A stretch of DNA of 64,000 bases from Oscillospiraceae bacterium. Lineage in GTDB: Bacteria; Bacillota; Clostridia; Oscillospirales; JAVBNY01. The notes below the pieces were generated by a model, which worked only from the letters and a program-made list of their open reading frames with translations, had not been told where the DNA came from and did no database searches. The stretch is from assembly GCA_031551205.1 (NCBI GenBank), contig JAVBNY010000001.1, positions 7,586 to 71,585 on the forward strand. The letters run 5' to 3'. Shown one piece after another: positions 7,003 to 47,521 of this stretch (positions are counted from its first letter, which is position 1; each line of letters opens with the position of its first letter). The position numbers and the translations under genes are program-made.

Positions 7003-8751
7003 TTGCAGAATACAATACAGATACCGGAGAACGTGAAAGGGCAGTTTAACGCTGCCCTTTCTCCCGGCAAGACTGGCAAAATACTGTCGGTTTTTTTGTT
7101 TGCTTCCGTTTTCCTTGGGGGACTGTTTCCCTACTGGTGCGGGCTTTTGGCCGGCGCCTTTTTGGTGTGTCTGCTGTGGATCGTTGTCCGCAAAAGAGGG
7201 AGTTTGGTTTTCCCAAAAACAATACCCGCCGTCTCCGTTTTTGTCGCCGTGGCGTTTTATCTGTTGTCGGTGCTCTGGGCCGTGGACAGAGGCATGGCCC
7301 TTCTCGGCTTTTTTAAATATCTGCCTATCGCGCTCTTCCTCTGCCTGTGCGCCGGGCTGGAAGATGAAAAAGAGAGATTGTTCCAAAGCGCGGCCATGGC
7401 AGGCGTCGCGTCTGTCGCCATATGCCTGCCATTGAGCTTTATCCCGGCATTGGGGAGATTCCTCAGGCCGGACGGCCGCTTCAGCGGCCCGTTCATGTAC
7501 GCGAACACATACGGTCTGTTTCTCCTGGCCTGTATTGTCATACTGTTCACAAAAAAGCAAGTGGCAAAGCGCGACTTCTTTTTTTGCGGTATTCTGATAC
7601 CCGGTATCCTTACGACCGGCAGCCGCAGTCTTTTCGTCTTGCTGGCGCTGACGATGGCTGCCCTGCTGTTTGTCAATTGGCGCGCCGTATGCGCTGCCGC
7701 GGGAATTGGAGCGGCGGCTACGGCGCTCGCCTCACTTGGCGCGTCGGGATCGCTGCAGAGGGCGTCGGAGGTCTCTTTTTCCGCCGGGGAATGGTTGACA
7801 AGGCTGGCATACTACTATGACGGCGTCCGTCTGCTGCCCGGCAGCCTGTTCGGGAGGGGGCATCTCGGGTGGTGGTATATTCAGCCGCAAATCCAAACGT
7901 CCGTTTATGATGCGAGATTTATACACTGCTGGCCGTTACAAGTGGCTCTGGATATCGGCGTTTTTCCGGCTTTGCTATTGATATTTTCCGCCTTTTTGCT
8001 TTTATTCAGCAAGAAAGTCGATCTCCGGGGAAGGCTGCTGCTTATCCTCATCGCCGGGCATGCGCTCATTGATTTTGATCTGGAGTTTCTGCCGGTGGCC
8101 TTTCTCCTTGTGTTGATTATCCCGAACGACGGCAAGGAAAACATTTCGCTGAACAAGGGGGCTAAACGATGGCTCTGTACGGCGGCGCTGCTCGCGGCCG
8201 GTCTTTCCGTTTGGCTGGGAACCGCGTCACTGGTGTCATACCTGGGTGAGCACAATGCGGCTGTGGCCATATATCCGTATTACACGGAAGCCATGGAAGC
8301 TATCGAGCTTCGGGAAAGCGACCCGCTTAAGGCCGAAAAATGGGCGGACCGCATCCTCTTGCATAACCCTCTCGTTTATGAGGCCTATAATGTGAAGGCC
8401 AAGGCGTTTGCGCGCGAAAAGGACTGGTTAGAGGCGGTGCGGATGAAACGGAGTTTCCTTTCTATCTATCGTCTTGAGGGAAAAGAATACGATGAATATT
8501 TAATGTATATTTACGCCGCTTTGCAAAAGGCCGCAGCGGAAGATGATGTGGACACATGCATTCAATTGGTAGATTGGGGACTTTCCGTTCCAAAGATGAT
8601 GGAGTCGGTGCAAAAGGGCCTTGGCCCCTTTACCTATAGAATAAAACACCAACCTACCCTTGCTCTTTCAATACAGTCACAGAATTTTCTAAACTATCTT
8701 GGCGATTATCAAAAACGTCTTAAAACAGTCAAAGAAGCATTGAATCAGTAA
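7003..8751 (+). CDS. Polytopic membrane protein of the O-antigen ligase/polymerase (Wzy_C-like) family with a helical-repeat (TPR-like) C-terminal domain
   Basis: About 10-12 hydrophobic segments. The region LTTGSRSLFVLLALTMAALLF resembles the Wzy_C core. The soluble C-terminal ~170 aa is helical-repeat-like. TTG start with an AAAGGGG RBS; an alternative GTG lies at 7033. Confidence 0.65.
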   Translation: MQNTIQIPENVKGQFNAALSPGKTGKILSVFLFASVFLGGLFPYWCGLLAGAFLVCLLWIVVRKRGSLVFPKTIPAVSVFVAVAFYLLSVLWAVDRGMALLGFFKYLPIALFLCLCAGLEDEKERLFQSAAMAGVASVAICLPLSFIPALGRFLRPDGRFSGPFMYANTYGLFLLACIVILFTKKQVAKRDFFFCGILIPGILTTGSRSLFVLLALTMAALLFVNWRAVCAAAGIGAAATALASLGASGSLQRASEVSFSAGEWLTRLAYYYDGVRLLPGSLFGRGHLGWWYIQPQIQTSVYDARFIHCWPLQVALDIGVFPALLLIFSAFLLLFSKKVDLRGRLLLILIAGHALIDFDLEFLPVAFLLVLIIPNDGKENISLNKGAKRWLCTAALLAAGLSVWLGTASLVSYLGEHNAAVAIYPYYTEAMEAIELRESDPLKAEKWADRILLHNPLVYEAYNVKAKAFAREKDWLEAVRMKRSFLSIYRLEGKEYDEYLMYIYAALQKAAAEDDVDTCIQLVDWGLSVPKMMESVQKGLGPFTYRIKHQPTLALSIQSQNFLNYLGDYQKRLKTVKEALNQ

Positions 8752-9080: not shown

Positions 9081-12000
9081 ATGAGCAGATGGAATAGGCG
9101 CGTCACGGCAGTGATATTGGCAGCGATTATGATCTTTGGAATGTGCATTACGTCTTATGCCGCGCCGTCGCGGACGGTTGTCTACAATTTAAACGGCGCT
9201 ACCGGTACCCCGCCTGCGGACCCCAATGTGTATAGCGCTTCGCCTTACAGGGCGACCATATTAAACATCAACGAGGGCGGCGGCAATGTAACGGCTCCGG
9301 CGGGAAAACAGTTTGCCGGATGGAGTCCTCTCGCGAACGGCATCGCCAATGAATGGTATGCTCCCGGCAAATCTGTCATAGTGAGCGCCAACGGCTTGGA
9401 GCTCTATGCTATGTGGGTGGAAGAGAAAGCGGAGTACAACGTGACCTTCCGCACGAAAATCAAGCCGTTTACAGTCGCGCCGCAGGTTGTCCAAAGGGGC
9501 GGCCTTGTAACTGAGCCCGCGCCGCTTGCTTATGAGGGCTATACGTTTGAGGGCTGGTACAGGGATTCCTCCTTCAGAACAAAGTGGAACTTTGCCACGG
9601 ACACCGTAACCGGCGATCTAATACTCCATGCCAAATGGCTGGAAAAAGACCTTAATCCCTGGAAGGTTACATACATAATGAGCGAAGGGGTAATCGGCCC
9701 CGGCCCCGTGGATAACACAACCTATTCCCTGAGCAGCGGCAACGCCAGGGTGAAAAACATTCCGGAAGGCACGACCTTCCCCGGAAAGGTCTTCGCCGGC
9801 TGGTCCACAACCCCCAACAGGGTGCTGGAGCTGAAATTCCGTCCCGGCACTAACACCGCCGACTACGTTGCGGTTAAGCAGGAGGGCGCAAAGCTCTACG
9901 ACGTTTGGGTCGACGCCAATCCGGCCTACTCGAACGCCGTGACCGTTGATTTCAGTAAAGAGTATCAGACTATGGCGGGACTCGGAAACGCTCTGGCCTT
10001 CAACAAAACGTCCGGCTATTTGCAGGTCTATAAAAAATTCAAGGAGCTCGGCGTGCCGGATGAGGAAAACCTGGCAATGGTCGCCCTCAATAAAGCCGTT
10101 GACGCCGAAACCGGCGCCAAGCTGGAAGTTTTCCGAATGATCATCGGCGACGGCGGTATTACCGCTCCCGATATAAACCCCGCCACCGGCGAAAAATATG
10201 AATGGGGCAACCGTTACTACGACGGGCCGAACGACACCATCTGGCCGGAGCCCGGCGTGGAAAATATTGTTTGGAACAGGCCTGATTGGGATACGCAAAA
10301 AGACAAATTTGACGCCAATCAGATATGGTATGTGCAAAAGGCCCTTGAGATAAACCCCAACCTCAAGGTGTACGGAGCGGCCTGGTCCCCGCCGTACTGG
10401 ATGAAGACCAATCTGGGCGTCCGCAACGACACGCCGGACAACCCCAACGGCCAGCCTAAGACCACATATCCGCTGCTCGACGAGGCGTACTTCGCGGACT
10501 ACGCGAAATATATCCTCGATTACGCATGGGGCATGTACGCATGGTACGGCATACCCATCTATGCCGTGTGCCCGACAAACGAGCCGGAAATTGACCACGG
10601 ATATTCCGCGCTTGTCTTCCGCGGCGACGACTATGAGAGATTCCTGCTTGATTATGTGAAGCCGCTCCTCGCAAAATATAAGGCCGAAGGCAAATTTGGC
10701 GACAAACCCTCCGGCGCCGGCATGGGATTTGGCGCGGTGGCGCCGATGATGACCATAGCCGCTCCGGAAGGTACGCGCATTGACCGTTCCACCAGCCCTG
10801 TTGATATGGGAACGCCCGACAGGCCGGGATACGGCGCGATGATGGCTAACCCCGAGATTCAGGATATGGTCGGCGTTTTCACAACCCATATGTACGAGAA
10901 CGACCAGTTCCTCTACTCCCCCAGAGTGGCCGGCGACGACGACCCCATCTATCCCTCATTCATGAGAAAATACGGCGACATCTGGATGACCGAGATAGGC
11001 CAGCAATTCCCCGCTTATAACGAACAGAATGTCGCGGACAACTTCAGTATGGTGAACGGCCTGTTCTGGGCCAGGAGAATATCCAACCAGTTTGCCAGCG
11101 ACCCGGGCTTTACCTCCTACGTATTATGGAACGGCACGGGTTCGGCGGGCGTTACAAATGACACCGCGCGCTGGATCAATATGCTGAACGCCGGTTCCGG
11201 CCAGGGGACGCTGCCTTCACTTACCGGGCAGCTCCGCATATACAAGCGCTTCTATACCGTAGCGCAGTTCTCGCGCTTTATTAACCCGGGCGATATACGC
11301 GTCGGCGCGGACAGGGTCCCGTTCGAGGGTGCAAACGTCACGGCGTACAAGAGCGCGGACGGCAAGGACTTCTCCATTGTCGCTCTCAACGAGGACAATC
11401 AGGCTCACACCATCACGATTACACTCTCCGGAAACAGCGCGACGAGCATTATTCCGTACCGCACCTCGAACAGCGAGAACATGAAGAGGCTTGACGCCAT
11501 TAGCGCGGCGGACGGCGTGTTCACGGTCACGCTGCCGGCCATGTCCATGACGACCTTTGTGAACGACAAGGGCGAAAAGAATCTGTCCGGCTGGAATGCC
11601 CGCGACGTGTTTACCACGATGGAGGCTGAGGACAACGACGGTCTGACCGGCGGAATCGTGACAGCTGACGGAATTGAGATTTCCAACGGCAACTGCGCCA
11701 AATTTGGAAACTTCAACTTTGCCGACGGAACCGGTACCCCGAGTGCGAACATACACGTGCTGCGCATGAAAGCTCTCGGCTCAGCTACCGCAAACGGCAG
11801 CCTTGAGATTCGCGTTGAAGGCCCGACGGGCCCGCGGGTGGGCGTTTTCAAGATAACCCCCTCTGAGGAGCCTACTCAGTATTTTGCCCAGATCGACACG
11901 GGCGACCTGTTTGCGTATGGCGTGAAGGACATCTATGTGACGTACAAGGGGCTTGGAAAGCTGTTCCTGGACAAGTTTACGTTTGATTCCACCGCGATTG

Positions 12001-13031
12001 CCGACGACAGCAACCTTGTCGTTAACAGCACGCTTAACACGAACGCGAACAGCTGGGCCGGAAAGGGCACCACAGTTTCCTCCGTTAATGAGCTTTACTA
12101 CCGCACAAGGTCCCTGAAGGTTGCCGCGGGCGGCTCGGATGTTGGGGCGGAGGCCGACCTCAGCGCGCTGCCTGAGGCGGGAACGGCTTATAATGTAAAA
12201 GCGTTCTTTATCCCGGCGTTCCCCTTTGCTTACAGCAAATACACCTCTTATGAGTCCGGGTTTGTAAACGGAGGCACCGCAGAGATCAGGCTTCAGTTCT
12301 ATAACGGCGAAACCCTGGTTGCTTCCCAGATCATAGCGTCCAGAGATAACATCAACAATATTGACTGGCGTCAGGTCAAGGGCACGTTTGTATACAGCCC
12401 GCCCGCGGAGGCGTTTACCTCTGTAAAGCTTATGCTCAGCATGTCGGGCGCCGGCGCGTTCTATGTTGACGAGGTGACGCTTACCAAGGCCGAGGTTGAG
12501 ACCGAAGAAGCGTTTGACCTGAGTATAGTATCGAAGATTGTCGCGGGATATGCCGCAAATCTCCCGGTTGAGGTTGTCAACGTCACCGAGCCCGTCGTGT
12601 TTGAGCTCTACAGCCCGAGCGACGCGCTGATCAGAACCATTACGGCTTCTAATGACGGAAGATACGTATTCCGCATCGAGAAGCAGGAGGCTGTTGCCGG
12701 GACGTACAAAATCAGGGTTAAAGGCCGCCCGTCATTTGAGGGCAGCGTGGAATGCGTAATTCCCGGAAACCTCTGGAGTGCGAGCGCCAGGGTTGAGGGC
12801 GGCAAAACGCTGATAACCTTTGGCGCGGAAGTAAGCTTTATGCCGGCTAAAAAGAACGTTACGATAGGCGGAGCCGTTGTCGACAACAGCAAAGTGGCCG
12901 CAGCCGGAAATGTCGTTACGATTGAACAGGCGGCAAGTCCGGGTCAGAAGGTAAAGATAGCCGGCGTTAAATATCCGGATCTCTTTCCGAGTTACTCGTT
13001 CACATTTGACATTGAATTCGTTGGGCAATAA
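9081..13031 (+). CDS. Secreted multidomain glycoside hydrolase family 30 enzyme
   Basis: Signal peptide. Three Listeria-Bacteroides-type repeats (FAGWS..LYAMW, YTFEGWYRD..LHAKW, FAGWST..LYDVW). GH30/clan-A catalytic core with PTNEPE (Glu codon 10581-10583) and WMTEIG (Glu codon 10992-10994). A CBM6/35-like domain (MEAEDNDG), a CBM4_9/22-like domain, and the shared C-terminal module. Confidence 0.85.
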   Translation: MSRWNRRVTAVILAAIMIFGMCITSYAAPSRTVVYNLNGATGTPPADPNVYSASPYRATILNINEGGGNVTAPAGKQFAGWSPLANGIANEWYAPGKSVIVSANGLELYAMWVEEKAEYNVTFRTKIKPFTVAPQVVQRGGLVTEPAPLAYEGYTFEGWYRDSSFRTKWNFATDTVTGDLILHAKWLEKDLNPWKVTYIMSEGVIGPGPVDNTTYSLSSGNARVKNIPEGTTFPGKVFAGWSTTPNRVLELKFRPGTNTADYVAVKQEGAKLYDVWVDANPAYSNAVTVDFSKEYQTMAGLGNALAFNKTSGYLQVYKKFKELGVPDEENLAMVALNKAVDAETGAKLEVFRMIIGDGGITAPDINPATGEKYEWGNRYYDGPNDTIWPEPGVENIVWNRPDWDTQKDKFDANQIWYVQKALEINPNLKVYGAAWSPPYWMKTNLGVRNDTPDNPNGQPKTTYPLLDEAYFADYAKYILDYAWGMYAWYGIPIYAVCPTNEPEIDHGYSALVFRGDDYERFLLDYVKPLLAKYKAEGKFGDKPSGAGMGFGAVAPMMTIAAPEGTRIDRSTSPVDMGTPDRPGYGAMMANPEIQDMVGVFTTHMYENDQFLYSPRVAGDDDPIYPSFMRKYGDIWMTEIGQQFPAYNEQNVADNFSMVNGLFWARRISNQFASDPGFTSYVLWNGTGSAGVTNDTARWINMLNAGSGQGTLPSLTGQLRIYKRFYTVAQFSRFINPGDIRVGADRVPFEGANVTAYKSADGKDFSIVALNEDNQAHTITITLSGNSATSIIPYRTSNSENMKRLDAISAADGVFTVTLPAMSMTTFVNDKGEKNLSGWNARDVFTTMEAEDNDGLTGGIVTADGIEISNGNCAKFGNFNFADGTGTPSANIHVLRMKALGSATANGSLEIRVEGPTGPRVGVFKITPSEEPTQYFAQIDTGDLFAYGVKDIYVTYKGLGKLFLDKFTFDSTAIADDSNLVVNSTLNTNANSWAGKGTTVSSVNELYYRTRSLKVAAGGSDVGAEADLSALPEAGTAYNVKAFFIPAFPFAYSKYTSYESGFVNGGTAEIRLQFYNGETLVASQIIASRDNINNIDWRQVKGTFVYSPPAEAFTSVKLMLSMSGAGAFYVDEVTLTKAEVETEEAFDLSIVSKIVAGYAANLPVEVVNVTEPVVFELYSPSDALIRTITASNDGRYVFRIEKQEAVAGTYKIRVKGRPSFEGSVECVIPGNLWSASARVEGGKTLITFGAEVSFMPAKKNVTIGGAVVDNSKVAAAGNVVTIEQAASPGQKVKIAGVKYPDLFPSYSFTFDIEFVGQ
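12520..13028 (+). other. Shared C-terminal module, copy A (GH30 enzyme)
   Basis: IVAGYAANLPVEV...GRYVFRI...AGTYKIRV...LWSASA...VKIAGVKYPDLFPSYSFTFDIEF. Confidence 0.8.
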
Positions 13032-36060: not shown

Positions 36061-39000
36061 TTATTTTACAGTCACGGTGAAGGAGAAGCTGTAACTTGGG
36101 AAGAGATCCGCGTACTTGACGCCGCCGATTACGATCTTCTGTCCGCTCGCTGCTGCGGCGGCTATCGTGACGGTTTTGCCGGAGGCGGAAACCTTTGCGA
36201 CATCTATTGCGGTATCACCGATCTTAACAGCCTTCTTCACGGCGTTAAAGCTCACGTCGGAGGCAAACACGACAACCGTGCTGCCCTCGCCGGAGGTTGC
36301 CACCGGCGACCAGAGATCCGCAGGAGCCGGAACACATTCCACAGCCGCTTGCGAGAGAGCCATTACGGACGTCGAGGCTTTTATAAGATAATTGCCCGCC
36401 ACGGACTCGCCTGCCTTCAGCGTGAAAACATACCTGCCGGAGGCGCTAATGCTCAGGGAATCAACAAGCGTGCCGTCCGGTGCAAAGAGCCCGAGCCGGG
36501 CCGCATACGCCTCGGCCGGGAAGGTGACCTGGACAGGCAGGTTCGCCGCGTATCCGGCGACGATCTTTGACGCCAGAGATGTAACGGACGGCGCCGTTCC
36601 CGGCATCACTATCTCCTCGTCGGAGAGCTTAAGCGTGACAGCCTTCGCGTACGCGAGGTTTATAACGTCCCTCTTTGGGAACTCGGAGCCGCCGGGCACC
36701 GCCTCGCCGTATCTGAAGCTCATGAAAGCGGCGTCCGTCGTGGAGTCGCACTGCTGCCAGACGGGGAGGCCCTCGCCGTTGGGATTGCCGGTCTTAACGA
36801 AGTTTGCCCAGTAAGACGTCATAGTGTCGCCGAGCTGATAATCCTTTTCTGTCCACTGCCTCTGCTGGGGAACATCCCTCATGGAATTGAACATGTACCA
36901 GAGCTCGGAGGAGTGGAACGCGCCGTAGAAGTCCTCGTCGCGGTCACGAGCGTACTGGGGCGTGTGCGGCGGGAGCTTCTGCTCAAAGTAGTAGGCATAG
37001 GCAGTGTGATCCTGATTGTGCGCGTTTGAATACATCGCCGACAGCCTGTACTGCGCGAGTGAAGAATCACATGAGGCCCTGAGATTCATCCTGTATGCGT
37101 CCTTCTCGGTCTGCGCGTCATATATGTCCTCGGTGTAGCCGTAGGGAGCAAATTTTGACTTCATGCTGTTCTGGAAGGTTGTTACATTCGTTGTACCGTT
37201 CTGGTTTCCCATCAGCGAGGTCATCTCGTCCGACGTGCCGCCGATCATGATGTCGATTCCGTCAAGAGCGCCGTCACGCCTGCGGTTGACAGACTCGTCC
37301 GTGAACACGTAGCCGTCCTTAGTCATGTTGCCGGACCCGAGAGCGCCCTTGGCGAGGATATCGGCCGCGGGGAGCTTGCGCAGCTCATTAACGTCCGTAG
37401 TTCCGAAGGCGGCCTGTACGGCGGTTACGCAGGCCGCGGTCTTGGCCTCAAGCGTTGGATAGCTGTTTGCGGCGACATATCCCGAAAAGCCGCTCTGGAG
37501 GATGGCGCGGTTAAAGAGGCCCTTTGTAAGCGGGGTTGAAAGCAGCGCGTTGACCGACATGCCGCCCGCGGACTGGCCGCAGATCGTAACATTCGCCGGG
37601 TCTCCGCCAAAGGCGGCGATGTTTTTCTGAACCCACTCAAGGCTCTTTATCTGGTCAAGCAGGCCGTAGTTTCCGGACACGCCGCGATCGTTCTCAGCGG
37701 ACAGCCCGGGAAGCGCAAGGAAGCCGAGCGCGCCGACGCGGTACTGAATCTGAACGACGATAATGCCCTTCGCCGCGAGCTTTGCCGCGTTAAACTCAAC
37801 CTCGGAGGCAAATCCGTGGTCAAAGCCGCCGCCGTGGATCCAAACAAGCACGGGATACTTCTCGTTCGCGGCGCCGGTCGACGGGGTATATACGTTCAGA
37901 TAGAGCCCGTCTTCACTGGCTTCGGGCTTCGGAGAGCCTTCATAATAGAACTCGTCGCCCCAGAAGCCGCCGGGAGGGTTGAGGTCGGGGTTTTGGAACT
38001 GCTGGTTTCCCCATGTGTCGCAGACGCGCACGCCTGACCAGGTGTTTTCATCGAGATCCTGCGGGGCTTTCCAGCGCAAATCGCCCACAGGGGGCTTCGC
38101 GAACGGGACGCCCTTGTAAAGCGTAACGCCTGCCTGGTCTGCGGGCACGCCGGAGATGTATCCGCCGGTGACCTTCACCGCATCCGCCTTCTTCTGTGCG
38201 AAAAGCCAGTCGACAACGCCGATTTTCTCGCTGTTATAGCTGTCGTTCAGAACAGGAACCCAAGACCAGTGGCCGTTGTACTGAACGCTCGGGAACTTTG
38301 TGTACTTGAAGCCGTCGTCCACGGCCTTGCCGTTGTCGATAAGCTTCTGATAGACAAGATCACTGTTCGCAGCGGGCCTGACAGTCGTGTCGTCCGCACT
38401 CTGGAACAGCCACATCGGCAGGCTCTTCAGCGAGGCGAACTCCTCGTCGGTGTACGCGGGATTTGCCAGCTGCGTCGCGGCGCAGATCGGCATCGCGGCC
38501 GCGAACCTCGAAGGATTGTAAAGGATCGTATTCCATGTCATGAAGCCGCCCATTGAGCAGCCGGTGACATAGATTCGGTTTGTGTCGACCTCCGGGTTGG
38601 AGGCGAGGATCTCGTCGATCATGCCGTGGATTTTGGAGGCGTCTGTGCGCGCCCAGCTCGTCGAGGTCTTACACTGCGGGGCGGCCACGAAGCAGGGGTT
38701 CTTCTCCTGCCGGTCGCCCTCAATCCATGCCACGCCGCCCTTGTTGCCCATGAGCTGGGCGGCGTTATCGGTTCCGCCCTCGCCGAAGCCGTGGATCCAG
38801 ATGACGAGCGGATACTTTTTGCCGCTCTCCATATTGGGGGTATAAAGCCTGTAGTTCAGGTCGTCGGCGGTTGTCTTTTTCGCGAATTCGTCGACAAGCA
38901 GGTTAACCGTGCCGGCGTTCGTGATTGTGTCGGAGGAACCCGACTTCACAACAGCATACCTTTCGAGCGGCTTTTGCACGTTAAATTGGGTAGAAAATAC

Positions 39001-39420
39001 ATACTGAAGCGCGTAGCAGCCGTTCACATCATTGTAGCCGTACTGGAGCTCCAGTACTATGTAGCGGCCGGAAGCGGCCCCGACGCCGCTGGGATCTATC
39101 TCCATCTTGTCGCTCACATAGGCCTTTGTTATGTTTCTCGTCGTGGGTGTGGCGTTCACCTGTCCGGTAAAACTCATGCCATAGCAGGTAACGGTATAGT
39201 CGGATGCCGCGACACTCGCGGCCGCAACGGTTTCGCCCATGTCGATAATAACCGCGGGGACTACCGTGCCATATTCCTCGACGCGCGTGATGACCTTAAA
39301 ATTGCGTTCAGCGGGCGCCGCCATGGTGCCCATGGATGAAAGCGTGCCCAAAACAATTGCCAGACAGAGCATCAGGGAAAGGCTTCTTTTGATCATACTG
39401 CTTTTTTTGTTGAGTTTCAT
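36061..39420 (-). CDS. Secreted double esterase: N-terminal alpha/beta-hydrolase esterase, type-B carboxylesterase, shared C-terminal module
   Basis: Signal peptide. First catalytic unit: YPLVIWIHGFGEGG..YVTGCSMGG. Second unit: GVPFAKPPVGDLRWKAPQ..WIHGGGF..ICGQSAGG (COesterase family). The C-terminus ends GVKYADLFPSYSFSFTVTVK. Confidence 0.85.
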   Translation of the reverse strand: MKLNKKSSMIKRSLSLMLCLAIVLGTLSSMGTMAAPAERNFKVITRVEEYGTVVPAVIIDMGETVAAASVAASDYTVTCYGMSFTGQVNATPTTRNITKAYVSDKMEIDPSGVGAASGRYIVLELQYGYNDVNGCYALQYVFSTQFNVQKPLERYAVVKSGSSDTITNAGTVNLLVDEFAKKTTADDLNYRLYTPNMESGKKYPLVIWIHGFGEGGTDNAAQLMGNKGGVAWIEGDRQEKNPCFVAAPQCKTSTSWARTDASKIHGMIDEILASNPEVDTNRIYVTGCSMGGFMTWNTILYNPSRFAAAMPICAATQLANPAYTDEEFASLKSLPMWLFQSADDTTVRPAANSDLVYQKLIDNGKAVDDGFKYTKFPSVQYNGHWSWVPVLNDSYNSEKIGVVDWLFAQKKADAVKVTGGYISGVPADQAGVTLYKGVPFAKPPVGDLRWKAPQDLDENTWSGVRVCDTWGNQQFQNPDLNPPGGFWGDEFYYEGSPKPEASEDGLYLNVYTPSTGAANEKYPVLVWIHGGGFDHGFASEVEFNAAKLAAKGIIVVQIQYRVGALGFLALPGLSAENDRGVSGNYGLLDQIKSLEWVQKNIAAFGGDPANVTICGQSAGGMSVNALLSTPLTKGLFNRAILQSGFSGYVAANSYPTLEAKTAACVTAVQAAFGTTDVNELRKLPAADILAKGALGSGNMTKDGYVFTDESVNRRRDGALDGIDIMIGGTSDEMTSLMGNQNGTTNVTTFQNSMKSKFAPYGYTEDIYDAQTEKDAYRMNLRASCDSSLAQYRLSAMYSNAHNQDHTAYAYYFEQKLPPHTPQYARDRDEDFYGAFHSSELWYMFNSMRDVPQQRQWTEKDYQLGDTMTSYWANFVKTGNPNGEGLPVWQQCDSTTDAAFMSFRYGEAVPGGSEFPKRDVINLAYAKAVTLKLSDEEIVMPGTAPSVTSLASKIVAGYAANLPVQVTFPAEAYAARLGLFAPDGTLVDSLSISASGRYVFTLKAGESVAGNYLIKASTSVMALSQAAVECVPAPADLWSPVATSGEGSTVVVFASDVSFNAVKKAVKIGDTAIDVAKVSASGKTVTIAAAAASGQKIVIGGVKYADLFPSYSFSFTVTVK
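36064..36590 (-). other. Shared C-terminal module, copy B
   Basis: IVAGYAANLPVQV...GRYVFTL...AGNYLIKA...LWSPVA...IVIGGVKYADLFPSYSFSFTVTV. Confidence 0.8.
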
Positions 39421-39890
39421 TTCTTTCCTCCTTCGTTTTTCCGCCGTCAGGGGAGTCTTCCCAAACGGCGGACAGTGCCCGGTACGCGCCGAATATTTTT
39501 TAGCCCATTCATCAGTCGTCAGTCCGAAAAACGTCGGCCTGCCCCCGCCTACATTTTCATAGAACGGTTCTGCTGCAAATATCCGGCTTGTCTTAATCCT
39601 AAAGACATAATTATTTTACAGTAAAACGGCCGCGAAAAATATTGCTAAATCTTTTGATTTGCACAGATATTTTTGTTGTTTTAAGGTGCTTATATATTTC
39701 AGGGTTTTATCTCAGCGCTTTATATGTTCGAAATATTCCGGTTTTGTATAAATACTTTACATGTTGAGTCTTAATTAAAAAAAAGCCCCAATTTAAAAGC
39801 CAGTTGGTGGTTTATACCAAAAACTCCATTGCAATATTTATCTTTTTATGATATTATTTTTGCAATACCTGATTCGGGGAGTTGATACGA

Positions 39891-41459
39891 ATGATTGAAA
39901 CCTTGATTGTTGATGATGAAATATATGTCCGGCTCGGGCTCGCTTCTATGATAAACTGGGAACAGCTGGGTTTTTCAATTGTCGGGCAGGCCGGGAACGG
40001 GGAGGCCGGACTTGAGCTTGCCCTCTCTCTGAAGCCACAGCTGATAATCACCGACATCAGGATGCCGGTGATGGACGGACTCACGTTTGTACGCAAGCTG
40101 AGAGAGCGGGGAGATACCGCCAAGATAATTGTTTTGAGCCTTTATGAGGATTTTCACAAGATGCGGGACGCTTCGCGCCTCGGAATTTTCGATTACCTGC
40201 TGAAATCCGAGCTTGTGGATACGGACAAGCTGACCGGTATACTCCTGAGCGTAAAGAAGGAGATTGAATCAATTCACGGCGCGGGGAAAAACAGCAGGAA
40301 CGCCCTGCAAACGAGCCTCATCCATGAGCTGTCTCACACTTTTGACCCTTATTCAGAGACGGCGTCGTTCCTTCTGTCCGAGCTCTCGCTTTCAGACTGC
40401 AAAAGCTACATACTTGTGCTCTATTCGCTTGACGACTATAATCTGCGTCTTATGCGCGGCGACAGAGGCCAAAACGAAAAAAACGTGATTTCCAGAACCG
40501 TGCAATATATAGCCGGAGACGTCGCCGGAGGCGACCCGTACTGCGTTATCGGCCCGGCCGGTGAAAACATCTTTGCATGCGTCGTTTTTGGAGACGGCAG
40601 CGAGGCGCTTGCCGCCAGGGCGGACGCATTTATCTCCGGCGTCAAAAAAGAGGTTTTTAAGCTCATTGAGTATGACGTCTTCGCCGCCAGCTCCGGGGTT
40701 TTGCCCATTCCATCCCTTCATGAATGCTTTCCAAGGGTTCTACCTCTGCTGAACTCAAGGATGTTCTTCAGTGACAGCTACAAGGTCACGCTGGCGGACG
40801 TGCGCGCAAAGACGGATTACCGCCTTAATCACGGGCTTACATCGGCTATGCTGTCCAAGTGCTTTGATCTCGGCGATGAAAAAGGCGCCTGCACTCTGCT
40901 TGACGACATCCTTTTGCGAGGCGTTCAGGAGAGCTTTGACGCCGTAACGGCCGACAATGTCAGCCTTGAGCTGTATGGGATCATACGCGAGACGATCAAG
41001 ATGAACTGCCTTCTCGACAATGAGGACGAGATAAGCAGTATCGACATACTTCGCTTTGACACGCTTCGGAAAAGGCGCGACTTTCTCGCGGAAAAGCTGA
41101 TGTCCGCTCTGCGAAAGCGAGAGGGCGGGGGCGACATGTGCAAGAGGATCATCGGATACTTCAACGAGAACTACCAGCACAGCATCTCGCTGCAGGAGAT
41201 CGCAAATTTCGTCAATATGTCACCGTCGTACGTCAGCCATCTTTACAAAAAATCCTCGGGCGAGAGCCTTATCGACACACTGACAAGAATACGCCTGCAA
41301 AACGCGAAAAAGCTGCTTACCGATAAAAACCAAAATCTAAAGATATACGAGATTTCGGACCGCGTGGGACTCGAAAACCCCAGGTATTTTAGCCAGCTTT
41401 TCAAAAAGGTCATTGGCTGCACCCCGGTGGAATACCGCGCAAAACATGTCGATGATTAG
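39891..41459 (+). CDS. Response regulator with a CheY receiver and a C-terminal AraC-type HTH (YesN-like)
   Basis: MIETLIVDDE..LIITDIRMPVMDGL (receiver domain). C-terminal NYQHSISLQEIANFVNMSPSYVSHLYKK..TPVEYR (AraC HTH). Confidence 0.9.
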   Translation: MIETLIVDDEIYVRLGLASMINWEQLGFSIVGQAGNGEAGLELALSLKPQLIITDIRMPVMDGLTFVRKLRERGDTAKIIVLSLYEDFHKMRDASRLGIFDYLLKSELVDTDKLTGILLSVKKEIESIHGAGKNSRNALQTSLIHELSHTFDPYSETASFLLSELSLSDCKSYILVLYSLDDYNLRLMRGDRGQNEKNVISRTVQYIAGDVAGGDPYCVIGPAGENIFACVVFGDGSEALAARADAFISGVKKEVFKLIEYDVFAASSGVLPIPSLHECFPRVLPLLNSRMFFSDSYKVTLADVRAKTDYRLNHGLTSAMLSKCFDLGDEKGACTLLDDILLRGVQESFDAVTADNVSLELYGIIRETIKMNCLLDNEDEISSIDILRFDTLRKRRDFLAEKLMSALRKREGGGDMCKRIIGYFNENYQHSISLQEIANFVNMSPSYVSHLYKKSSGESLIDTLTRIRLQNAKKLLTDKNQNLKIYEISDRVGLENPRYFSQLFKKVIGCTPVEYRAKHVDD

Positions 41460-41486
41460 ATGCGCTGGATTTAAGGAGGGGCTGAC

Positions 41487-45025: not shown

Positions 45026-47521
45026 TTAAACGGTTATTGTAAACGTAAACGAGTAGCTCGGGAAGTAGAGCGGGAATTTGACCGCCCTGACCGTGATTTT
45101 GTCTCCGCTCGCAAGCTCGCTGAAGAGGAACGGAACCTTCAGGCTGTTTCCGACAGTCTCAACAATGCTTTGCGTAAGGCCCTTCACGGTCACACAGCCG
45201 TTGAACGACCCTCCTGCGGCTGCGTTTGCTTCCGGCTTCAGCGCAAAGTTTATCAGCGTCGCGCCGTCTGTCGAGGCGGAAAGCGTCGGGCTCCAGATGC
45301 CGGCCGGAAGGTCGGTAACGTCGAGGCTAATCTCGCGCGAGATCTCTCCGGCGGTGGCTTTTATTGTATACTTGCCCGCGGCAGGCAGTTTTTTGCAGGC
45401 GATCAGCACTGTTCCGTCGCTGCCAACAGCCCCTCTGCCGTATTCAGTTTCGCCGTCTGAAACCGAGACGGTAATCCCGCTTGGTATGAAGTTGACCGCC
45501 CTGACCGAGACCTTGATGTTGGCCGCGTGCCCCGCGACAATATTTGAGGGAGTCAGGTTTTTGACCTCCAGCCTCTGCATGGCAAGGTCGTAGTCCGTAA
45601 GGCCGTAGCCGTCTCTCGCGTACAGGAGGTTTACCCTGTCGCGCTCGGGGAACTGAGTGGCTGTTCCAAAGGCGGCCTCGCCGTCAATAAAGCTCATAAA
45701 CGCGCCGCTTGTGGACGAATTGCAGGTATTCCACTGCGTCATCCCTGCGCCGTTCGGGTTGCCGTACTTGACGAAGTTTGCCCAGTATGCCGAGATCGTG
45801 TCGGCCAGGGCGTGATCCTCGGCGCGCCACAGTCTCTGCTTCGGGTCTGAGTCGCGCATCGAGTTGAACACATACCAGAGCTCGGAGGAATGATATGCTC
45901 CGTAGAACGCCTCGTCGCGCGTGGGAACAACTTCCTTTGAGTGCGGCGGGTTATTGTGGTCGAAGTAGTAGGCGTAAACATTTGCGTCGCTGTGCGCCAT
46001 TGTGTACATGGCCGACACACGGTACTGCGCAAACATGACGTCCGCCTGGCAGCGCAGGTTCGCCCTGTATGCCTCGGAGTTCGTAGTGACGGCGTAGGCG
46101 CTTTCGTCGTAGCCGTATTTGCCGTACCTGTTTTTCATGTTGTTCATAAATGTCGTCATGTTAGTCGTTCCGCTCGGATTGCCGCTGAGCGAGGTGTTCT
46201 CGTTCGACGTGCCGCCGATCAGCAGGTCGATGCCGTCAAGGGCGCCGTCCCTGCGCAGATTAACGGACTCGTCGGTGAATACAAAGCCGTCCTTCGTCAT
46301 GTTGCTGGCGGCGTTTGTGACGGCCGACTTTGAGAGCAGGGTTGCGGCGTCGATCTTGCGAAGCTCGTCAGGGTCGGTCGTACCAAACGCGGTTCTGACG
46401 GCGTTTTCGCAGCTTGTCTGTTTTGCCGCCAGCGTGCCGTAAGGCGTGTAGGAATTGCTGCCGAGGAATCCCGCCAGGTTGCTTTGAAGGATCGCGCGGC
46501 TGAACAGGCCCTTTGAAAGAGGCGTGGAGAGCAGAGCCTGCACGGCCCACGAGCCTGCCGACTGCCCGGAAATCGTGACCATGGACGGGTCGCCCCCGAA
46601 GGCCTCGATGTTATTATTTACCCACTCAAGGCTCTTTACAAGGTCGAGGATCGCGTAGTTGCCTGAAACGCCGTTTTCGTTCTCGGCGTTGAGGCCCGGA
46701 AGCGTGAGAAAACCGAACGAGCCGAGACGGTACTGCGTCTCGACGACGATGATGCCGTTTGCCGCGAGCTTCGAGGCGTTGAACTCAACCTCGGAGGCCC
46801 AGCCGCTGTTAAAGCCGCCGCCGTGGATATTCAGCAGCACGGGCAGCTTTTCACTGCCGGTCTTCGCGGGCGTGTAGATATTCATGTACAGGCAGTCTTC
46901 GCTGGCCTCAGGGCGCTCGTCATAGTAGAACTCGTCGCCCCAGAAGGAGGTGCCAGGCGGGTTGCCGTTAATGCTCTGATACGCGCGGTTTGGGTTGGTG
47001 TCGCAGGCGCGGACGCCCTCCCACGCGTTTTCATCGAGATCCTGCGGCGCCTTCCAGCGCAGGGCGCCCACGGGCGGCTTCGCAAACGGGACGCCCTTGA
47101 ACAGCTCGACGCCCTGTGTATCGGACGGGATGCCGCTGATCAGGCCGCCTCTAATGCGAATGTCTCCCAGTCCTACCGAGGGGACCTCTTGTGTGGATGA
47201 AACGCCGTTTACCTTGACGATTATCTTGTCGCCGGGGGCCCATACGGCCGCGGCGGACGGATATGTAAACGTAAAGTTACCGTCCGTATCGGCCTGGGTT
47301 TGCCCCAGGTAGTCTGGGTTTACAAATCCGGTGTCGGCATTGAGGTATTCGATTATTGAAAGCATTTGGCCGGAGGCGAAGCCTGAGCCTGCGACCGTAA
47401 CCTTCCTGGCTTGAAGATCAAGCTGTATGCTGAAGGCCGGGTCGGCGGCGAGAGCTGAAAAGCTGAGAAGCTGGATAAGCATCGCAATTATCAGCAGGCA
47501 TGAAAAAGCTTTTTTTGTCAT
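45026..47521 (-). CDS. Secreted type-B carboxylesterase with an N-terminal Ig-like region and the shared C-terminal module
   Basis: Signal peptide. GVPFAKPPVGALRWKAPQ..NIHGGGF..ISGQSAGS. Ends AVKFPLYFPSYSFTFTITV. A GC hairpin at 44978-45003 lies downstream. Confidence 0.85.
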   Translation of the reverse strand: MTKKAFSCLLIIAMLIQLLSFSALAADPAFSIQLDLQARKVTVAGSGFASGQMLSIIEYLNADTGFVNPDYLGQTQADTDGNFTFTYPSAAAVWAPGDKIIVKVNGVSSTQEVPSVGLGDIRIRGGLISGIPSDTQGVELFKGVPFAKPPVGALRWKAPQDLDENAWEGVRACDTNPNRAYQSINGNPPGTSFWGDEFYYDERPEASEDCLYMNIYTPAKTGSEKLPVLLNIHGGGFNSGWASEVEFNASKLAANGIIVVETQYRLGSFGFLTLPGLNAENENGVSGNYAILDLVKSLEWVNNNIEAFGGDPSMVTISGQSAGSWAVQALLSTPLSKGLFSRAILQSNLAGFLGSNSYTPYGTLAAKQTSCENAVRTAFGTTDPDELRKIDAATLLSKSAVTNAASNMTKDGFVFTDESVNLRRDGALDGIDLLIGGTSNENTSLSGNPSGTTNMTTFMNNMKNRYGKYGYDESAYAVTTNSEAYRANLRCQADVMFAQYRVSAMYTMAHSDANVYAYYFDHNNPPHSKEVVPTRDEAFYGAYHSSELWYVFNSMRDSDPKQRLWRAEDHALADTISAYWANFVKYGNPNGAGMTQWNTCNSSTSGAFMSFIDGEAAFGTATQFPERDRVNLLYARDGYGLTDYDLAMQRLEVKNLTPSNIVAGHAANIKVSVRAVNFIPSGITVSVSDGETEYGRGAVGSDGTVLIACKKLPAAGKYTIKATAGEISREISLDVTDLPAGIWSPTLSASTDGATLINFALKPEANAAAGGSFNGCVTVKGLTQSIVETVGNSLKVPFLFSELASGDKITVRAVKFPLYFPSYSFTFTITV
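45029..45560 (-). other. Shared C-terminal module, copy C
   Basis: IVAGHAANIKVSV...AGKYTIKA...IWSPTL...ITVRAVKFPLYFPSYSFTFTITV. Confidence 0.75.

What the first reader, a model, noticed from the sequence alone, without database searches (positions are those of the whole stretch)
12520..13028. Unassigned ~170-aa C-terminal module ending FPSYSF[ST]F shared by three secreted hydrolases
Three large signal-peptide-bearing enzymes end in the same two-part module. They are the GH30 enzyme (12520-13028, +) and the two carboxylesterases (36064-36590 and 45029-45560, both -). The first half aligns as IVAG[YH]AAN[LI].V, GRYVF and AG.Y.I[KR]. The second half aligns as [LI]WS, G.T, V.F, K, G.K[IV].[IV], [GA]VK[YF], then FPSYSF[ST]F plus 4-7 residues to the stop. 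The catalytic domains in front of it differ (glycosidase versus esterase), so it behaves as a mobile C-terminal tag rather than part of one enzyme family. I see no LPXTG motif, SLH repeat, dockerin Ca-binding repeats, choline- or GW-type repeats, or terminal TM helix. A module that always sits at the extreme C-terminus of several exoenzymes is typical of a sorting, surface-retention or shared substrate-targeting domain. It may be a lineage-specific system for displaying plant-cell-wall esterases and glycosidases.
Basis: partly seen in the sequence, partly recalled or inferred. Interest (0 to 1): 0.7.

Follow-up and report, generated by a model that had tools for sequence, protein, structure and literature searches.

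The report
Shared C-terminal tag on secreted enzymes
Three unrelated secreted enzymes in this window end in the same ~170-residue, two-domain Ig-like module with a near-invariant GVKYxxLFPSYSFTF ending; no database describes this module, yet it tags dozens of different secreted proteins per genome in a narrow group of uncultured Clostridia, and it most likely holds them at the cell surface.

Summary
A GH30-like glycosidase (9081-13031 +) and two carboxylesterases (36061-39420 -, 45026-47521 -) each carry a signal-peptide-like N-terminus. Each ends in a homologous ~170-aa module closing with FPSYSF[ST]F plus 4-7 residues.

It is not a private paralogy. A profile search of 1.84 billion representative proteins gave 386 hits. 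The module reaches the C-terminus in 169 of 183 analysed cases. Among 185,579 species genomes, the exact motif with a confirmed module occurs in only three MAGs, at roughly 17 and over 30 copies in the two Oscillospiraceae MAGs. Cargo is very diverse: GH3, GH43, GH26, subtilases, M28 peptidases, esterases, lyases, sulfatase, nucleotidase, VWA, LRR and cohesin.

Pfam, NCBIfam and PDB give no assignment. AlphaFold models two beta-sandwiches: a filamin-like Ig spacer and a terminal domain with no close solved structure. Within one genome the module body is ~30% identical but the last 16 residues are ~87% identical.

The best reading is a lineage-specific, non-covalent surface-retention or docking tag, analogous to but not homologous with CBM37, dockerin or SLH. 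This function is inferred, not shown.

The parts
9081..13031 (+). Gene for a 1316-aa secreted multidomain glycosidase: signal-peptide-like N-terminus, Flg_new repeat, GH30-like TIM barrel plus beta-sandwich, a sub-threshold CBM6-like region, and the C-terminal tag
   Evidence: ORF. Pfam: Flg_new 6e-18, Glyco_hydro_30 27.9 bits (cutoff 23), GH30C 22 bits, CBM_6 23.9 bits (below the 28.9 cutoff).
12525..12761 (+). Tag domain 1 of the GH30 protein (residues 1149-1227): acidic Ig-like beta-sandwich of filamin/Big_3_5 type, probably a spacer
   Evidence: Coordinates. AlphaFold shows strands 16-90 of the 180-aa tail. The family profile matches filamin repeats at E 8e-4 and the gingipain Ig domain. 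Big_3_5 and Big_6 hits are sub-threshold. Median pI is 4.6.
12762..13028 (+). Tag domain 2 of the GH30 protein (residues 1228-1316): terminal 8-stranded beta-sandwich, with no sequence or close structural relative in Pfam, NCBIfam or PDB
   Evidence: AlphaFold model of domain 2 alone has pLDDT 95.1 and pTM 0.84. The best Foldseek PDB hit is E 6e-3 with TM <=0.50. The PDB profile search gives no hit to this half.
12963..13007 (+). Hyperconserved terminal hairpin GVKYPDLFPSYSFTF of the GH30 protein, followed by 7 residues and the stop codon
   Evidence: Coordinates. Column conservation is 76-99% over 156 non-redundant modules. The terminal 16-mer is ~87% identical within a genome, against ~30% for the rest of the module.
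36061..39420 (-). Gene for a 1119-aa secreted double esterase: signal-peptide-like N-terminus, EstA_Ig_like, an alpha/beta-hydrolase esterase, a COesterase domain, and the tag
   Evidence: ORF. Pfam: COesterase 1.3e-101, EstA_Ig_like 3.6e-14, Esterase 3.9e-12. The protein is identical to P0005 in public data.
36064..36576 (-). Tag of esterase 1 (residues 949-1119): domain 1 at 36325-36576, domain 2 at 36064-36324, motif GVKYADLFPSYSFSF at 36079-36123, then 5 residues
45026..47521 (-). Gene for an 831-aa secreted carboxylesterase: signal-peptide-like N-terminus, a small N-terminal domain, a COesterase domain, and the tag
   Evidence: ORF. Pfam COesterase 4.9e-95. The protein is identical to P0006.
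45029..45553 (-). Tag of esterase 2 (residues 657-831): domain 1 at 45308-45553, domain 2 at 45029-45307, motif AVKFPLYFPSYSFTF at 45041-45085, then 4 residues
   Evidence: Big_3_5 scores 27.1 bits on domain 1, below the 35.5-bit cutoff.
47162..47449 (-). N-terminal ~95-aa domain of esterase 2 (residues 25-120). The same domain occurs in small proteins made only of signal peptide, this domain and the tag
   Evidence: phmmer E 1e-11 to 5e-25 to P0092, P0031, P0017, P0051, P0002, P0004 and P0056. Pfam gives no hit.
9081..9161 (+). Sec-type signal-peptide-like N-terminus of the GH30 protein (MSRWNRRVTAVILAAIMIFGMCITSYA|AP). The equivalent stretches lie at about 39316-39420 (-) and 47447-47521 (-) in the two esterases
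   Evidence: Read directly from the translations. The pattern is a basic n-region, a hydrophobic core and an A-x-A-like site. It was judged by eye and by a crude regular expression, not by SignalP.

Best explanation
The module is a lineage-specific tag for exoproteins. I propose that it retains Sec-secreted proteins non-covalently at the cell envelope, or on a common surface receptor.

Anatomy, shown here. The N-terminus looks like a Sec signal peptide. The cargo is any of many catalytic or adhesive domains. Domain 1 is an acidic filamin-like Ig sandwich. Domain 2 is a terminal 8-stranded beta-sandwich. Its last two strands form a hairpin, G-V-K-Y-P-x-L-F-P-S-Y-S-F-T-F-T, which is almost invariant, and the protein ends 3-11 residues later.

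Proposed mechanism, inferred. After Sec export the module folds outside the cell. Domain 1 acts as a spacer. The conserved outward-facing residues of the terminal hairpin (G/K on the penultimate strand, the S-S-T-T ladder on the last strand) form one binding face. All tagged proteins of a cell use this face to recognise the same ligand. That ligand is a surface protein receptor or a neutral cell-envelope glycan. The result is that hydrolases, peptidases, adhesins and even a cohesin-bearing adaptor are displayed on the cell. In this lineage the tag would do the job that SLH domains, sortase signals, dockerins or CBM37 do elsewhere.
For: 1. One tag, many cargoes, many copies per genome. Fifty loci (54 ORFs) with the motif lie in just three of 185,579 species genomes, at about 17 and over 30 copies in the two Oscillospiraceae MAGs. 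The 38 full-length MAG proteins carry 54 Pfam families, and 54 metagenomic representatives carry 83. These include Peptidase_S8 (6), M28, M20, GH3, GH43, GH26, GH106, GH116, fucosidase, RG lyase, sulfatase, GDSL, VWA and LRR. A substrate-specific CBM would not be expected on subtilases, nucleotidases, VWA and LRR proteins. Many tagged CAZymes also already carry their own CBMs: CBM6, F5/8-C, CBM_X2 and CBM96.

2. The tagged proteins are secreted. 152 of 180 have a signal-peptide-like N-terminus by a crude test.

3. There is one copy per protein, and it is terminal in 169 of 183.

4. The tag is mutually exclusive with other anchors. About 190 tagged proteins contain no SLH, no LPXTG signal and no dockerin-type loops, although SLH proteins exist in the same genomes.

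5. The tag occupies the position of other docking domains. The MAG subtilase P0079 (I9-S8-PA-tag, 1336 aa) has Bacillaceae homologues of the same length and order that carry Dockerin_1 at the C-terminal end, for example residues 1321-1372 of 1407.

6. Proteins with the order signal peptide-tag-cohesin exist (P0107 scores Cohesin at 26.2 bits against a cutoff of 24.1). This pairs the tag with a cohesin in the way anchoring scaffoldins pair a cohesin with an anchor.

7. Constraint is strongly uneven. Within one genome the module body is 27-31% identical but the last 16 residues are 87% identical. The conserved positions include the polar alternate positions S173, S175, T177 and T179 at 83-96%. 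By beta-strand periodicity these should point outward. This fits a shared recognition face.

8. The tag also occurs N-terminally or internally. It is therefore a self-contained folded binding domain, not a signal that needs a free C-terminus.
Against: No ligand, receptor or co-occurring machinery was found. No untagged gene family recurs next to tagged genes in 50 loci.

The module is acidic to neutral (pI 4.6 and 5.9). This is unlike classical wall-polymer binders such as SLH or GW domains, so binding to anionic wall polymers is unlikely and the ligand class stays open.

The inference that the conserved S/T positions are solvent-exposed rests on strand periodicity, not on inspected coordinates.

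All carriers are uncultured organisms, so there is no localisation or proteomic evidence.

Enrichment for CAZyme cargo is equally expected for a promiscuous CBM.
Confidence: 0.45

Rival explanations
1. The module is a promiscuous carbohydrate-binding module. It targets the enzymes to dietary or plant polysaccharides, and perhaps also binds the cell's own glycans, as CBM37 of Ruminococcus albus does.
For: Most cargo is carbohydrate-active: GH3, GH43, GH26, GH30, lyases and esterases. The module is a beta-sandwich, the commonest CBM fold. It contains invariant aromatic residues W101, Y174, F176 and F178. CBM37 is a precedent for a species-restricted, high-copy C-terminal CBM that binds many polysaccharides and also the cell surface (PMC4081043).
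Against: The tag also sits on subtilases, M28/M20 peptidases, 5'-nucleotidases, VWA, LRR and cohesin proteins. Tagged CAZymes usually already carry dedicated CBMs. The tag is never seen in tandem, whereas CBM37 often is. The conserved aromatics alternate with polar residues and continue into an I/V row, so they look like core residues rather than a binding platform. Foldseek returns no CBM. hhalign against the putative CBM37 of an R. albus 7 xylanase gives 0.2% probability.
Confidence: 0.2
2. The module is a C-terminal sorting or processing signal. A dedicated machinery would recognise it and then cleave it or use it for covalent attachment. This would be a Gram-positive counterpart of the T9SS C-terminal domain, or a removable pre-peptidase C-terminal (PPC)-type domain.
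For: The module is at the extreme C-terminus in 92% of cases and the distance from motif to end is tightly constrained at 3-11 residues, with a mode of 4-5. The terminal motif is hyperconserved over a divergent body. The layout cargo-Ig domain-terminal beta-sandwich parallels gingipain IgSF plus CTD. Domain 1 weakly matches the gingipain Ig domain (E 0.03-0.1).
Against: The sequence lacks any hydrophobic or charged membrane tail of the kind sortase- and exosortase-type signals need. Por_Secre_tail/TIGR04183 and PPC are not matched; PPC scores E 0.0018 in 1 of 39 members only. Fourteen of 183 modules are N-terminal or internal with intact motifs, which a signal needing a free C-terminus would not tolerate. 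Oscillospiraceae are generally regarded as single-membrane bacteria, so they would not need outer-membrane export. No conserved neighbouring machinery was found.
Confidence: 0.12
3. The module is a protein-protein assembly element. It would join tagged proteins to each other or to a scaffold, giving a cohesin-dockerin-like complex or strand-exchange polymers, without necessarily involving the cell wall.
For: The terminal strand has the alternating hydrophobic/polar pattern typical of donor or edge strands, and both of its faces are conserved. Tag-cohesin fusions exist. Homologous peptidases carry a dockerin at the same position. Small proteins consisting only of signal peptide, N-domain and tag exist, and they could be structural subunits.
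Against: AlphaFold places the terminal strand confidently within its own domain (pLDDT 95). No candidate partner domain was identified. No repeated receptor-type scaffold turned up near tagged genes.
Confidence: 0.13
4. The module is a passive structural element: an Ig-like stalk that stabilises or solubilises large exoenzymes. It would have no targeting function and would have spread by domain shuffling.
For: Ig-like domains are common inert linkers in bacterial exoproteins. Domain 1 resembles filamin/Big-type spacers. No ligand is known.
Against: Passive spacers are not normally restricted to the extreme C-terminus, limited to one copy per protein, or nearly invariant over 16 residues while the rest drifts to ~30% identity. 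They also do not usually reach dozens of copies per genome on unrelated cargo.
Confidence: 0.08

Closest known systems
CBM37 of Ruminococcus albus
   Same: CBM37 is restricted to one lineage within Oscillospiraceae and is present at high copy number, 51-102 per genome. It is usually C-terminal on many different secreted enzymes. It sits on enzymes whose orthologues in a sister species carry dockerins. It is reported to attach enzymes to the bacterial surface (PMC4081043).
   Different: No sequence relationship is detectable. hhalign gives 0.2% probability against the C-terminal ~110 aa of the R. albus 7 GH11-CBM22-GH10-CBM37-type xylanase. CBM37 is one ~100-aa unit and is often tandem. This tag is a fixed two-domain unit, never tandem, and also sits on peptidases, nucleotidases and VWA/LRR proteins. 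Carbohydrate binding is untested here.
Type I dockerin (PF00404) of cellulosomal and non-cellulosomal Firmicutes
   Same: Both are a shared C-terminal docking module on diverse exoenzymes. Homologues of a tagged subtilase carry Dockerin_1 at the equivalent position. Tag-cohesin fusions show that the tag coexists with cohesin-type systems.
   Different: A dockerin is a ~60-aa duplicated calcium-binding helical module with a known partner, cohesin. This tag is a ~170-aa all-beta module with no calcium loops and no known partner.
SLH domains (PF00395)
   Same: Both would give non-covalent retention of many exoproteins at the Gram-positive surface. Both are position-flexible, occurring N- or C-terminally.
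   Different: SLH is a helical three-repeat module that binds pyruvylated wall polymer. The tag gives no SLH hit. SLH proteins form a separate, non-overlapping set in the same genomes.
T9SS C-terminal domain with preceding IgSF domain (gingipain RgpB type)
   Same: Both are a terminal ~80-90-aa beta-sandwich at the extreme C-terminus of dozens of unrelated secreted proteins per genome, preceded by an Ig-like domain. Domain 1 weakly matches the gingipain Ig domain.
   Different: Neither Por_Secre_tail nor TIGR04183 is matched. T9SS is, to my knowledge, a Bacteroidota outer-membrane system, and the carriers here are Clostridia. Some tags are internal or N-terminal.
Filamin / Big_3_5 / E-set bacterial Ig-like domains
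   Same: Domain 1 has this fold and weak sequence similarity: filamin E 8e-4, and Big_3_5 at 27 bits.
   Different: The scores are below the Pfam cutoff. The similarity does not cover domain 2 or the conserved motif, so it says nothing about function.

Membership tests
SLH (PF00395) | Profile match to the ~45-aa SLH repeat, usually three copies | tested here: not met
   The three tails give no hit at E<=10. The window's own SLH triplet, used as a phmmer query, finds nothing in ~190 tagged proteins.
Dockerin type I (PF00404) | Duplicated calcium-binding loop-helix segments; profile match | tested here: not met
   Pfam gives no hit. A regular expression finds no paired D.[ND].[DN]G-type loops. 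The predicted fold is all-beta.
Sortase LPXTG signal (Gram_pos_anchor) | LPXTG, then a hydrophobic helix, then a basic tail at the C-terminus | tested here: not met
   The proteins end 3-11 residues after the FxF motif with no hydrophobic stretch. The regular expression was negative in all true tag proteins. NCBIfam and Pfam give no hit.
T9SS C-terminal domain (PF18962 / TIGR04183) | Profile match to the Por_Secre_tail CTD | tested here: not met
   Pfam and NCBIfam give no hit even at E<=10 or over 39 diverse members. No CTD appears among the listed Foldseek hits.
T9SS C-terminal domain (PF18962 / TIGR04183) | Strictly C-terminal beta-sandwich on many unrelated secreted proteins per genome | tested here: inconclusive
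   The module is C-terminal in 169 of 183 and present at dozens per genome. However, 14 are internal or N-terminal.
T9SS C-terminal domain (PF18962 / TIGR04183) | Presence of Por/Spr secretion machinery and an outer membrane in the host | not testable with these tools
   Only ±6 kb around the tagged genes was available. The carriers are labelled Oscillospiraceae and Defluviitaleaceae.
CBM37 | Sequence homology to the R. albus CBM37 module | tested here: not met
   hhalign of the 39-sequence tag profile against the C-terminal 110 aa of R. albus 7 xylanase WP_013483737 gives 0.2% probability. The architecture of that protein matches the GH11-CBM22-GH10-CBM37 entry of PMC4081043. Caveat: only one CBM37 sequence was used, and its identity is inferred from the architecture.
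CBM37 | Binding to diverse polysaccharides and to cell-wall carbohydrate | not testable with these tools
   This needs recombinant protein binding assays.
Big_3_5 / filamin-type Ig-like domain (domain 1 only) | Profile match above the Pfam gathering score | tested here: not met
   The best score is 27.1 bits against a cutoff of 35.5. Only 4 of 39 members match, all sub-threshold. The PDB filamin match is E 8e-4.
Big_3_5 / filamin-type Ig-like domain (domain 1 only) | Ig-like beta-sandwich fold | tested here: met
   AlphaFold gives pLDDT 86 for the two-domain model. Foldseek matches tandem Ig proteins at E 7e-7 to 1e-5.
PPC pre-peptidase C-terminal domain (PF04151) | Profile match | tested here: not met
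   One of 39 members matches at E 0.0018, and none above threshold.
Other Gram-positive wall-binding repeats (CW_binding_1/2, GW, WxL, LysM, SH3b, ChW) | Profile match | tested here: not met
   None appears in Pfam scans of the tails at E<=10 or of 39 diverse modules at E<=0.05.

The most novel reading that the evidence does not exclude
The tag and a still-unidentified receptor or attachment machinery would together form a previously unrecognised exoprotein display system in a clade of uncultured Oscillospiraceae-like Clostridia. It would be independent of sortase, SLH, cohesin-dockerin and CBM37. The invariant GVKYxxLFPSYSFTF hairpin would be the address label that puts 20-40 hydrolases, peptidases and adhesins per cell on the surface. 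In the most unusual version, the label would be used for enzyme-catalysed modification (for example O-glycosylation of the Ser/Thr/Tyr ladder) or for strand-exchange assembly, rather than simple binding.
Probability: 0.35. Interest if true: 0.8.

Novelty: new variant of a known kind. Interest (0 to 1): 0.62.

Why it matters
Only a handful of systems are known by which Gram-positive gut and fibre-degrading bacteria keep their enzymes on the cell: sortase, SLH, cohesin-dockerin, CBM37 and CWB2. Each was informative for microbial ecology and useful for surface-display engineering.

This module appears to be another such address label. No domain database I could search describes it. It marks the exoproteome of a poorly known, uncultured clostridial lineage. 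Recognising it lets one predict that lineage's surface-exposed degradome directly from sequence. It also gives a compact ~170-aa (perhaps ~90-aa) candidate display tag.

The problem is well posed for experiment. The open question is what binds the invariant hairpin. If the module turns out to be only a promiscuous CBM, it would still be a new CBM family.

Tried and rejected
1. The word-indexed protein search returned only 4-5 hits, both with the 3-sequence profile and with a 39-sequence profile. It is not suited to this family. The exhaustive representative search was needed.

2. Cluster look-ups gave no names or annotation.

3. Domains 1 and 2 are not detectably related to each other (hhalign). 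I therefore dropped the idea of an internal duplication.

4. I looked for a conserved neighbour that could be a receptor or machinery. Clustering all ORFs of at least 150 aa from 50 loci gave no untagged family linked to the tag. SLH proteins near some tagged genes are unrelated to one another outside the SLH repeats. The window's Wzy_C-like gene has no counterpart in the loci.

5. I considered a DNA-level explanation: gene conversion, or a conserved RNA or DNA element at the gene ends. It is rejected because synonymous sites differ.

6. tblastn of the tag against 72,556 plasmids gave no match.

7. Literature searches for the motif string found nothing. A search for Oscillospiraceae C-terminal anchoring domains listed no evidently relevant paper. 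A search for the MAG label returned only unrelated word matches.

It was repeated without them.

9. Binding to anionic wall polymers by charge was considered and judged unlikely, because the module is acidic to neutral.
Full report
OBSERVATION

The three ORFs exist as described. They are 9081-13031 (+, 1316 aa), 36061-39420 (-, 1119 aa) and 45026-47521 (-, 831 aa).

Pfam supports the catalytic assignments. The first protein has a Listeria-Bacteroides (Flg_new) repeat, a divergent GH30 barrel with its beta-sandwich (27.9 and 22 bits, at or above the cutoffs) and a sub-threshold CBM6-like region. The second has EstA_Ig_like, an alpha/beta-hydrolase esterase and a COesterase domain (1.3e-101). 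The third has a COesterase domain (4.9e-95).

All three begin with a basic, then hydrophobic, then A-x-A N-terminus. I read this as a Sec signal peptide, by eye and not with a dedicated predictor.

The last ~175 residues of the three proteins align at 46% and 34% identity with 36 invariant columns. All three end FPSYSF[ST]F plus 4-7 residues. An HMM of the three tails finds only these three copies in the six-frame translation of the window.

The coding DNA of the motif differs at synonymous positions. The conservation is therefore selection on the protein, not recent duplication.

IS IT A KNOWN DOMAIN?

It is not, in any library I could search.

- Pfam and NCBIfam give nothing above threshold, even at E<=10.
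- Scanning 39 diverse members one by one gives only sub-threshold Big_3_5 (4 of 39) and scattered noise.
- A 39-sequence profile against all PDB sequences matches only the first half, and weakly: filamin repeats at E 8e-4, and the gingipain Ig domain at E 0.03-0.1.
- AlphaFold models the tail as two beta-sandwiches (pLDDT 86). Foldseek returns generic tandem-Ig proteins at TM 0.35-0.45.
- Domain 2 modelled alone with 30 sequences is very confident (pLDDT 95.1, pTM 0.84, eight strands). It still has no close solved relative (best E 6e-3, TM <=0.50, MHC class II chains).
- The two halves are not detectably related to each other.
- The motif string is absent from 8 million full-text papers.

HOW WIDESPREAD, AND ON WHAT?

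The word-indexed search was nearly blind to this family. The exhaustive profile search of 1.84 billion representative proteins gave 386 hits at E<=1e-3 and 246 at E<=1e-10. The hits include the window's own two esterases (P0005, P0006).

I analysed 183 proteins with a full-length module: the listed representatives, the MAG proteins and the window's GH30 protein. In 169 of them the module reaches the C-terminus. The proteins stop 3-11 residues (mode 4-5) after the F-x-F. By a crude test, 152 of 180 have a signal-peptide-like N-terminus.

A scan of one genome for each of 185,579 species used the pattern [YL]FPSYSF[TS]F. It found 50 confirmed loci (54 ORFs) in just three MAGs:

| MAG | Loci |
|---|---|
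| Oscillospiraceae EPI_MAG_00114 | 17 |
| Oscillospiraceae EPI_MAG_00258 | 32 (a few ORFs are contig-end fragments) |
| Defluviitaleaceae MAG | 1 |

The cargo is very heterogeneous. The 38 full-length MAG proteins carry 54 Pfam families. These include Peptidase_S8 with PA (6), GH3, fucosidase, RG lyase, CE2, GH26, GH106, GH116, sulfatase, glucuronoyl esterase, LRR and CBM_X2. The 54 metagenomic representatives carry 83 families. These include GH43 (6), GH3, M28, M20, GDSL, VWA, LRR, CBM6 and F5/8-C.

The 14 non-terminal cases are informative. The tag lies directly after the signal peptide, in front of:
- VWA domains (P0077, P0081);
- a GDSL lipase (P0132);
- three 5'-nucleotidase units (L028);
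- a cohesin domain (P0107, with Cohesin at 26.2 bits against a cutoff of 24.1; P0127 and P0140 are sub-threshold).

None of about 190 tagged proteins has an SLH domain, an LPXTG signal or dockerin-type loops. SLH proteins do occur in the same genomes and in this window.

WHERE THE CONSTRAINT LIES

Conservation was measured over 156 non-redundant modules. It is concentrated in the last two strands, G-V-K-Y-P-x-L-F-P-S-Y-S-F-T-F-T, at 76-99% per column. Elsewhere only A28, G62, G76, Y78, W101 and F116 stand out.

Within a single genome the module body averages 27-31% identity, while the terminal 16 residues average 87%. Both the hydrophobic row (Y, F, F, then I/V) and the polar row (S, S, T, T) of the last strand are conserved. 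By strand periodicity one of these rows must face the solvent. This is my inference, because I could not inspect the coordinates. This pattern is what a shared recognition surface would produce.

The module is acidic to neutral: domain 1 has a median pI of 4.6 and domain 2 of 5.9.

INTERPRETATION

The module is a mobile, lineage-restricted tag of secreted proteins. Six points favour a general retention or docking function over a substrate-targeting one:
- the cargo includes peptidases, nucleotidases and adhesin-type domains;
- tagged CAZymes already carry their own CBMs;
- there is exactly one tag per protein;
- the tag does not co-occur with other anchors;
- it is fused to a cohesin in some proteins;
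- it sits where other lineages have a docking domain. The MAG subtilase P0079 (I9-S8-PA-tag) has Bacillaceae homologues of the same length that end in a Dockerin_1 domain, and another homologue that ends in Big_2.

The N-terminal and internal occurrences argue that it works as a folded binding domain, not as a processing signal that needs a free C-terminus.

I therefore propose that domain 1 is a spacer and the conserved hairpin face of domain 2 binds one common surface ligand. That ligand would be a protein receptor or a neutral glycan. My confidence is about 0.45. The rivals are a promiscuous CBM (0.20), an inter-protein assembly element (0.13), a cleaved or covalently processed sorting domain (0.12) and a passive stalk (0.08).

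No ligand, partner or linked machinery was found, so the function is inferred.

COMPARISON WITH KNOWN SYSTEMS

The closest functional analogue is CBM37 of Ruminococcus albus. CBM37 is unique to that species and present at 51-102 copies per genome. It sits on enzymes whose R. flavefaciens orthologues carry dockerins, and it is reported to attach enzymes to cell-wall carbohydrate (PMC4081043).

To test membership I fetched an R. albus 7 plasmid-borne xylanase. Its architecture is GH11, CBM_4_9, GH10 and a ~100-aa C-terminal unit. This matches the paper's GH11-CBM22-GH10-CBM37 entry. Profile comparison with the tag gave 0.2% probability. The tag works in a similar niche but is not a CBM37.

It is likewise not an SLH, dockerin, LPXTG, T9SS-CTD, PPC, CWB, GW, WxL or LysM element, because the profile tests are negative. 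Its cargo-Ig-terminal sandwich layout does resemble gingipain IgSF plus CTD.

VERDICT

The finding is real and not in the databases I could search. Two corrections apply: the position is not always terminal, and the cargo is not only plant-cell-wall enzymes.

I rate it a new variant of a known kind, namely a shared terminal targeting or anchoring module of Gram-positive exoproteins, with interest about 0.6. The decisive experiments are binding and localisation assays with the recombinant tag and hairpin mutants. Genome-wide co-occurrence profiling would identify the partner.

Noticed in passing
window 47162-47449 (-); proteins P0002, P0004, P0017, P0031, P0051, P0056, P0092: The first ~95 residues after the signal peptide of esterase 2 form a domain with no Pfam match. 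The same domain recurs in a family of small (~270-300 aa) secreted proteins made only of this domain plus the tag (E 1e-11 to 5e-25). One of them, P0031, comes from the same sequencing sample as the window. phmmer also gives weak secondary alignments between this domain and tag domain 2, for example GNFTFTYP against YSFTFT.
   Followed up: partly
window 4413-6965 (+): This is an 850-aa protein with a signal peptide and three N-terminal SLH repeats (Pfam 9.5e-30). A Pro/Thr linker follows, and then two ~290-aa internal repeats of an unassigned domain. It lies two genes upstream of the tagged GH30 gene on the same strand. It may be an S-layer or surface-receptor protein. No homologue of the repeat region was found in the 50 fetched loci.
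   Followed up: partly
window 7003-8751 (+): This is a 582-aa polytopic membrane protein with a sub-threshold Wzy_C (O-antigen ligase/polymerase) match (22 bits, cutoff 31.7) and a soluble helical C-terminal part. It sits between the SLH protein and the tagged GH30 gene. Wzy_C domains also occur in protein O-oligosaccharyltransferases (from my own knowledge). That would bear on the Ser/Thr/Tyr ladder of the tag only if a link were shown, and none was found.
   Followed up: partly
proteins P0107, P0127, P0140 (public metagenomes): These are small secreted proteins with the order signal peptide, acidic linker, tag, cohesin-like domain. P0107 passes the Pfam Cohesin cutoff when its C-terminal part is scanned alone. 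This places the tag in organisms that also have cohesin-type assembly.
   Followed up: partly
proteins P0227, P0186, P0168 and many others: A large family of ~1350-1400-aa Vpr-like S8 peptidases occurs in non-cellulolytic Bacillaceae such as Bacillus, Peribacillus, Neobacillus and Gottfriedia. These proteins carry a Dockerin_1 domain near the C-terminus.
   Followed up: no
L003 (three genes), L007 and L043 (two genes each), all in EPI_MAG_00258: Tagged genes sometimes lie in tandem on the same strand. The tails at the contig ends of L044 and L045 are identical to the tail of L002, so they may be assembly fragments or very recent copies.
   Followed up: no
window 47578-49872 (-): This is a 764-aa secreted GDSL lipase/esterase with a Big_2 domain. 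It lies immediately upstream of tagged esterase 2 on the same strand but lacks the tag. Not every exoenzyme of this organism is tagged. Its N-terminal ~220 residues have no Pfam match.
   Followed up: no
window 39882-43016 (+) and L051: An AraC-type response regulator and a His_kinase/HAMP sensor pair lie next to esterase 1, transcribed divergently from it. The same arrangement appears on the independent public contig that carries this gene. This pair may regulate the esterase.
   Followed up: no
L024 and P0146 (RG lyase family 11 proteins): In these ~2100-aa rhamnogalacturonan lyases the tag is followed by an extra ~170-180-aa C-terminal domain with no Pfam hit, ending ...FTF.G.QAY..GIIIEA. 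This is a rare case of the tag being internal.
   Followed up: no
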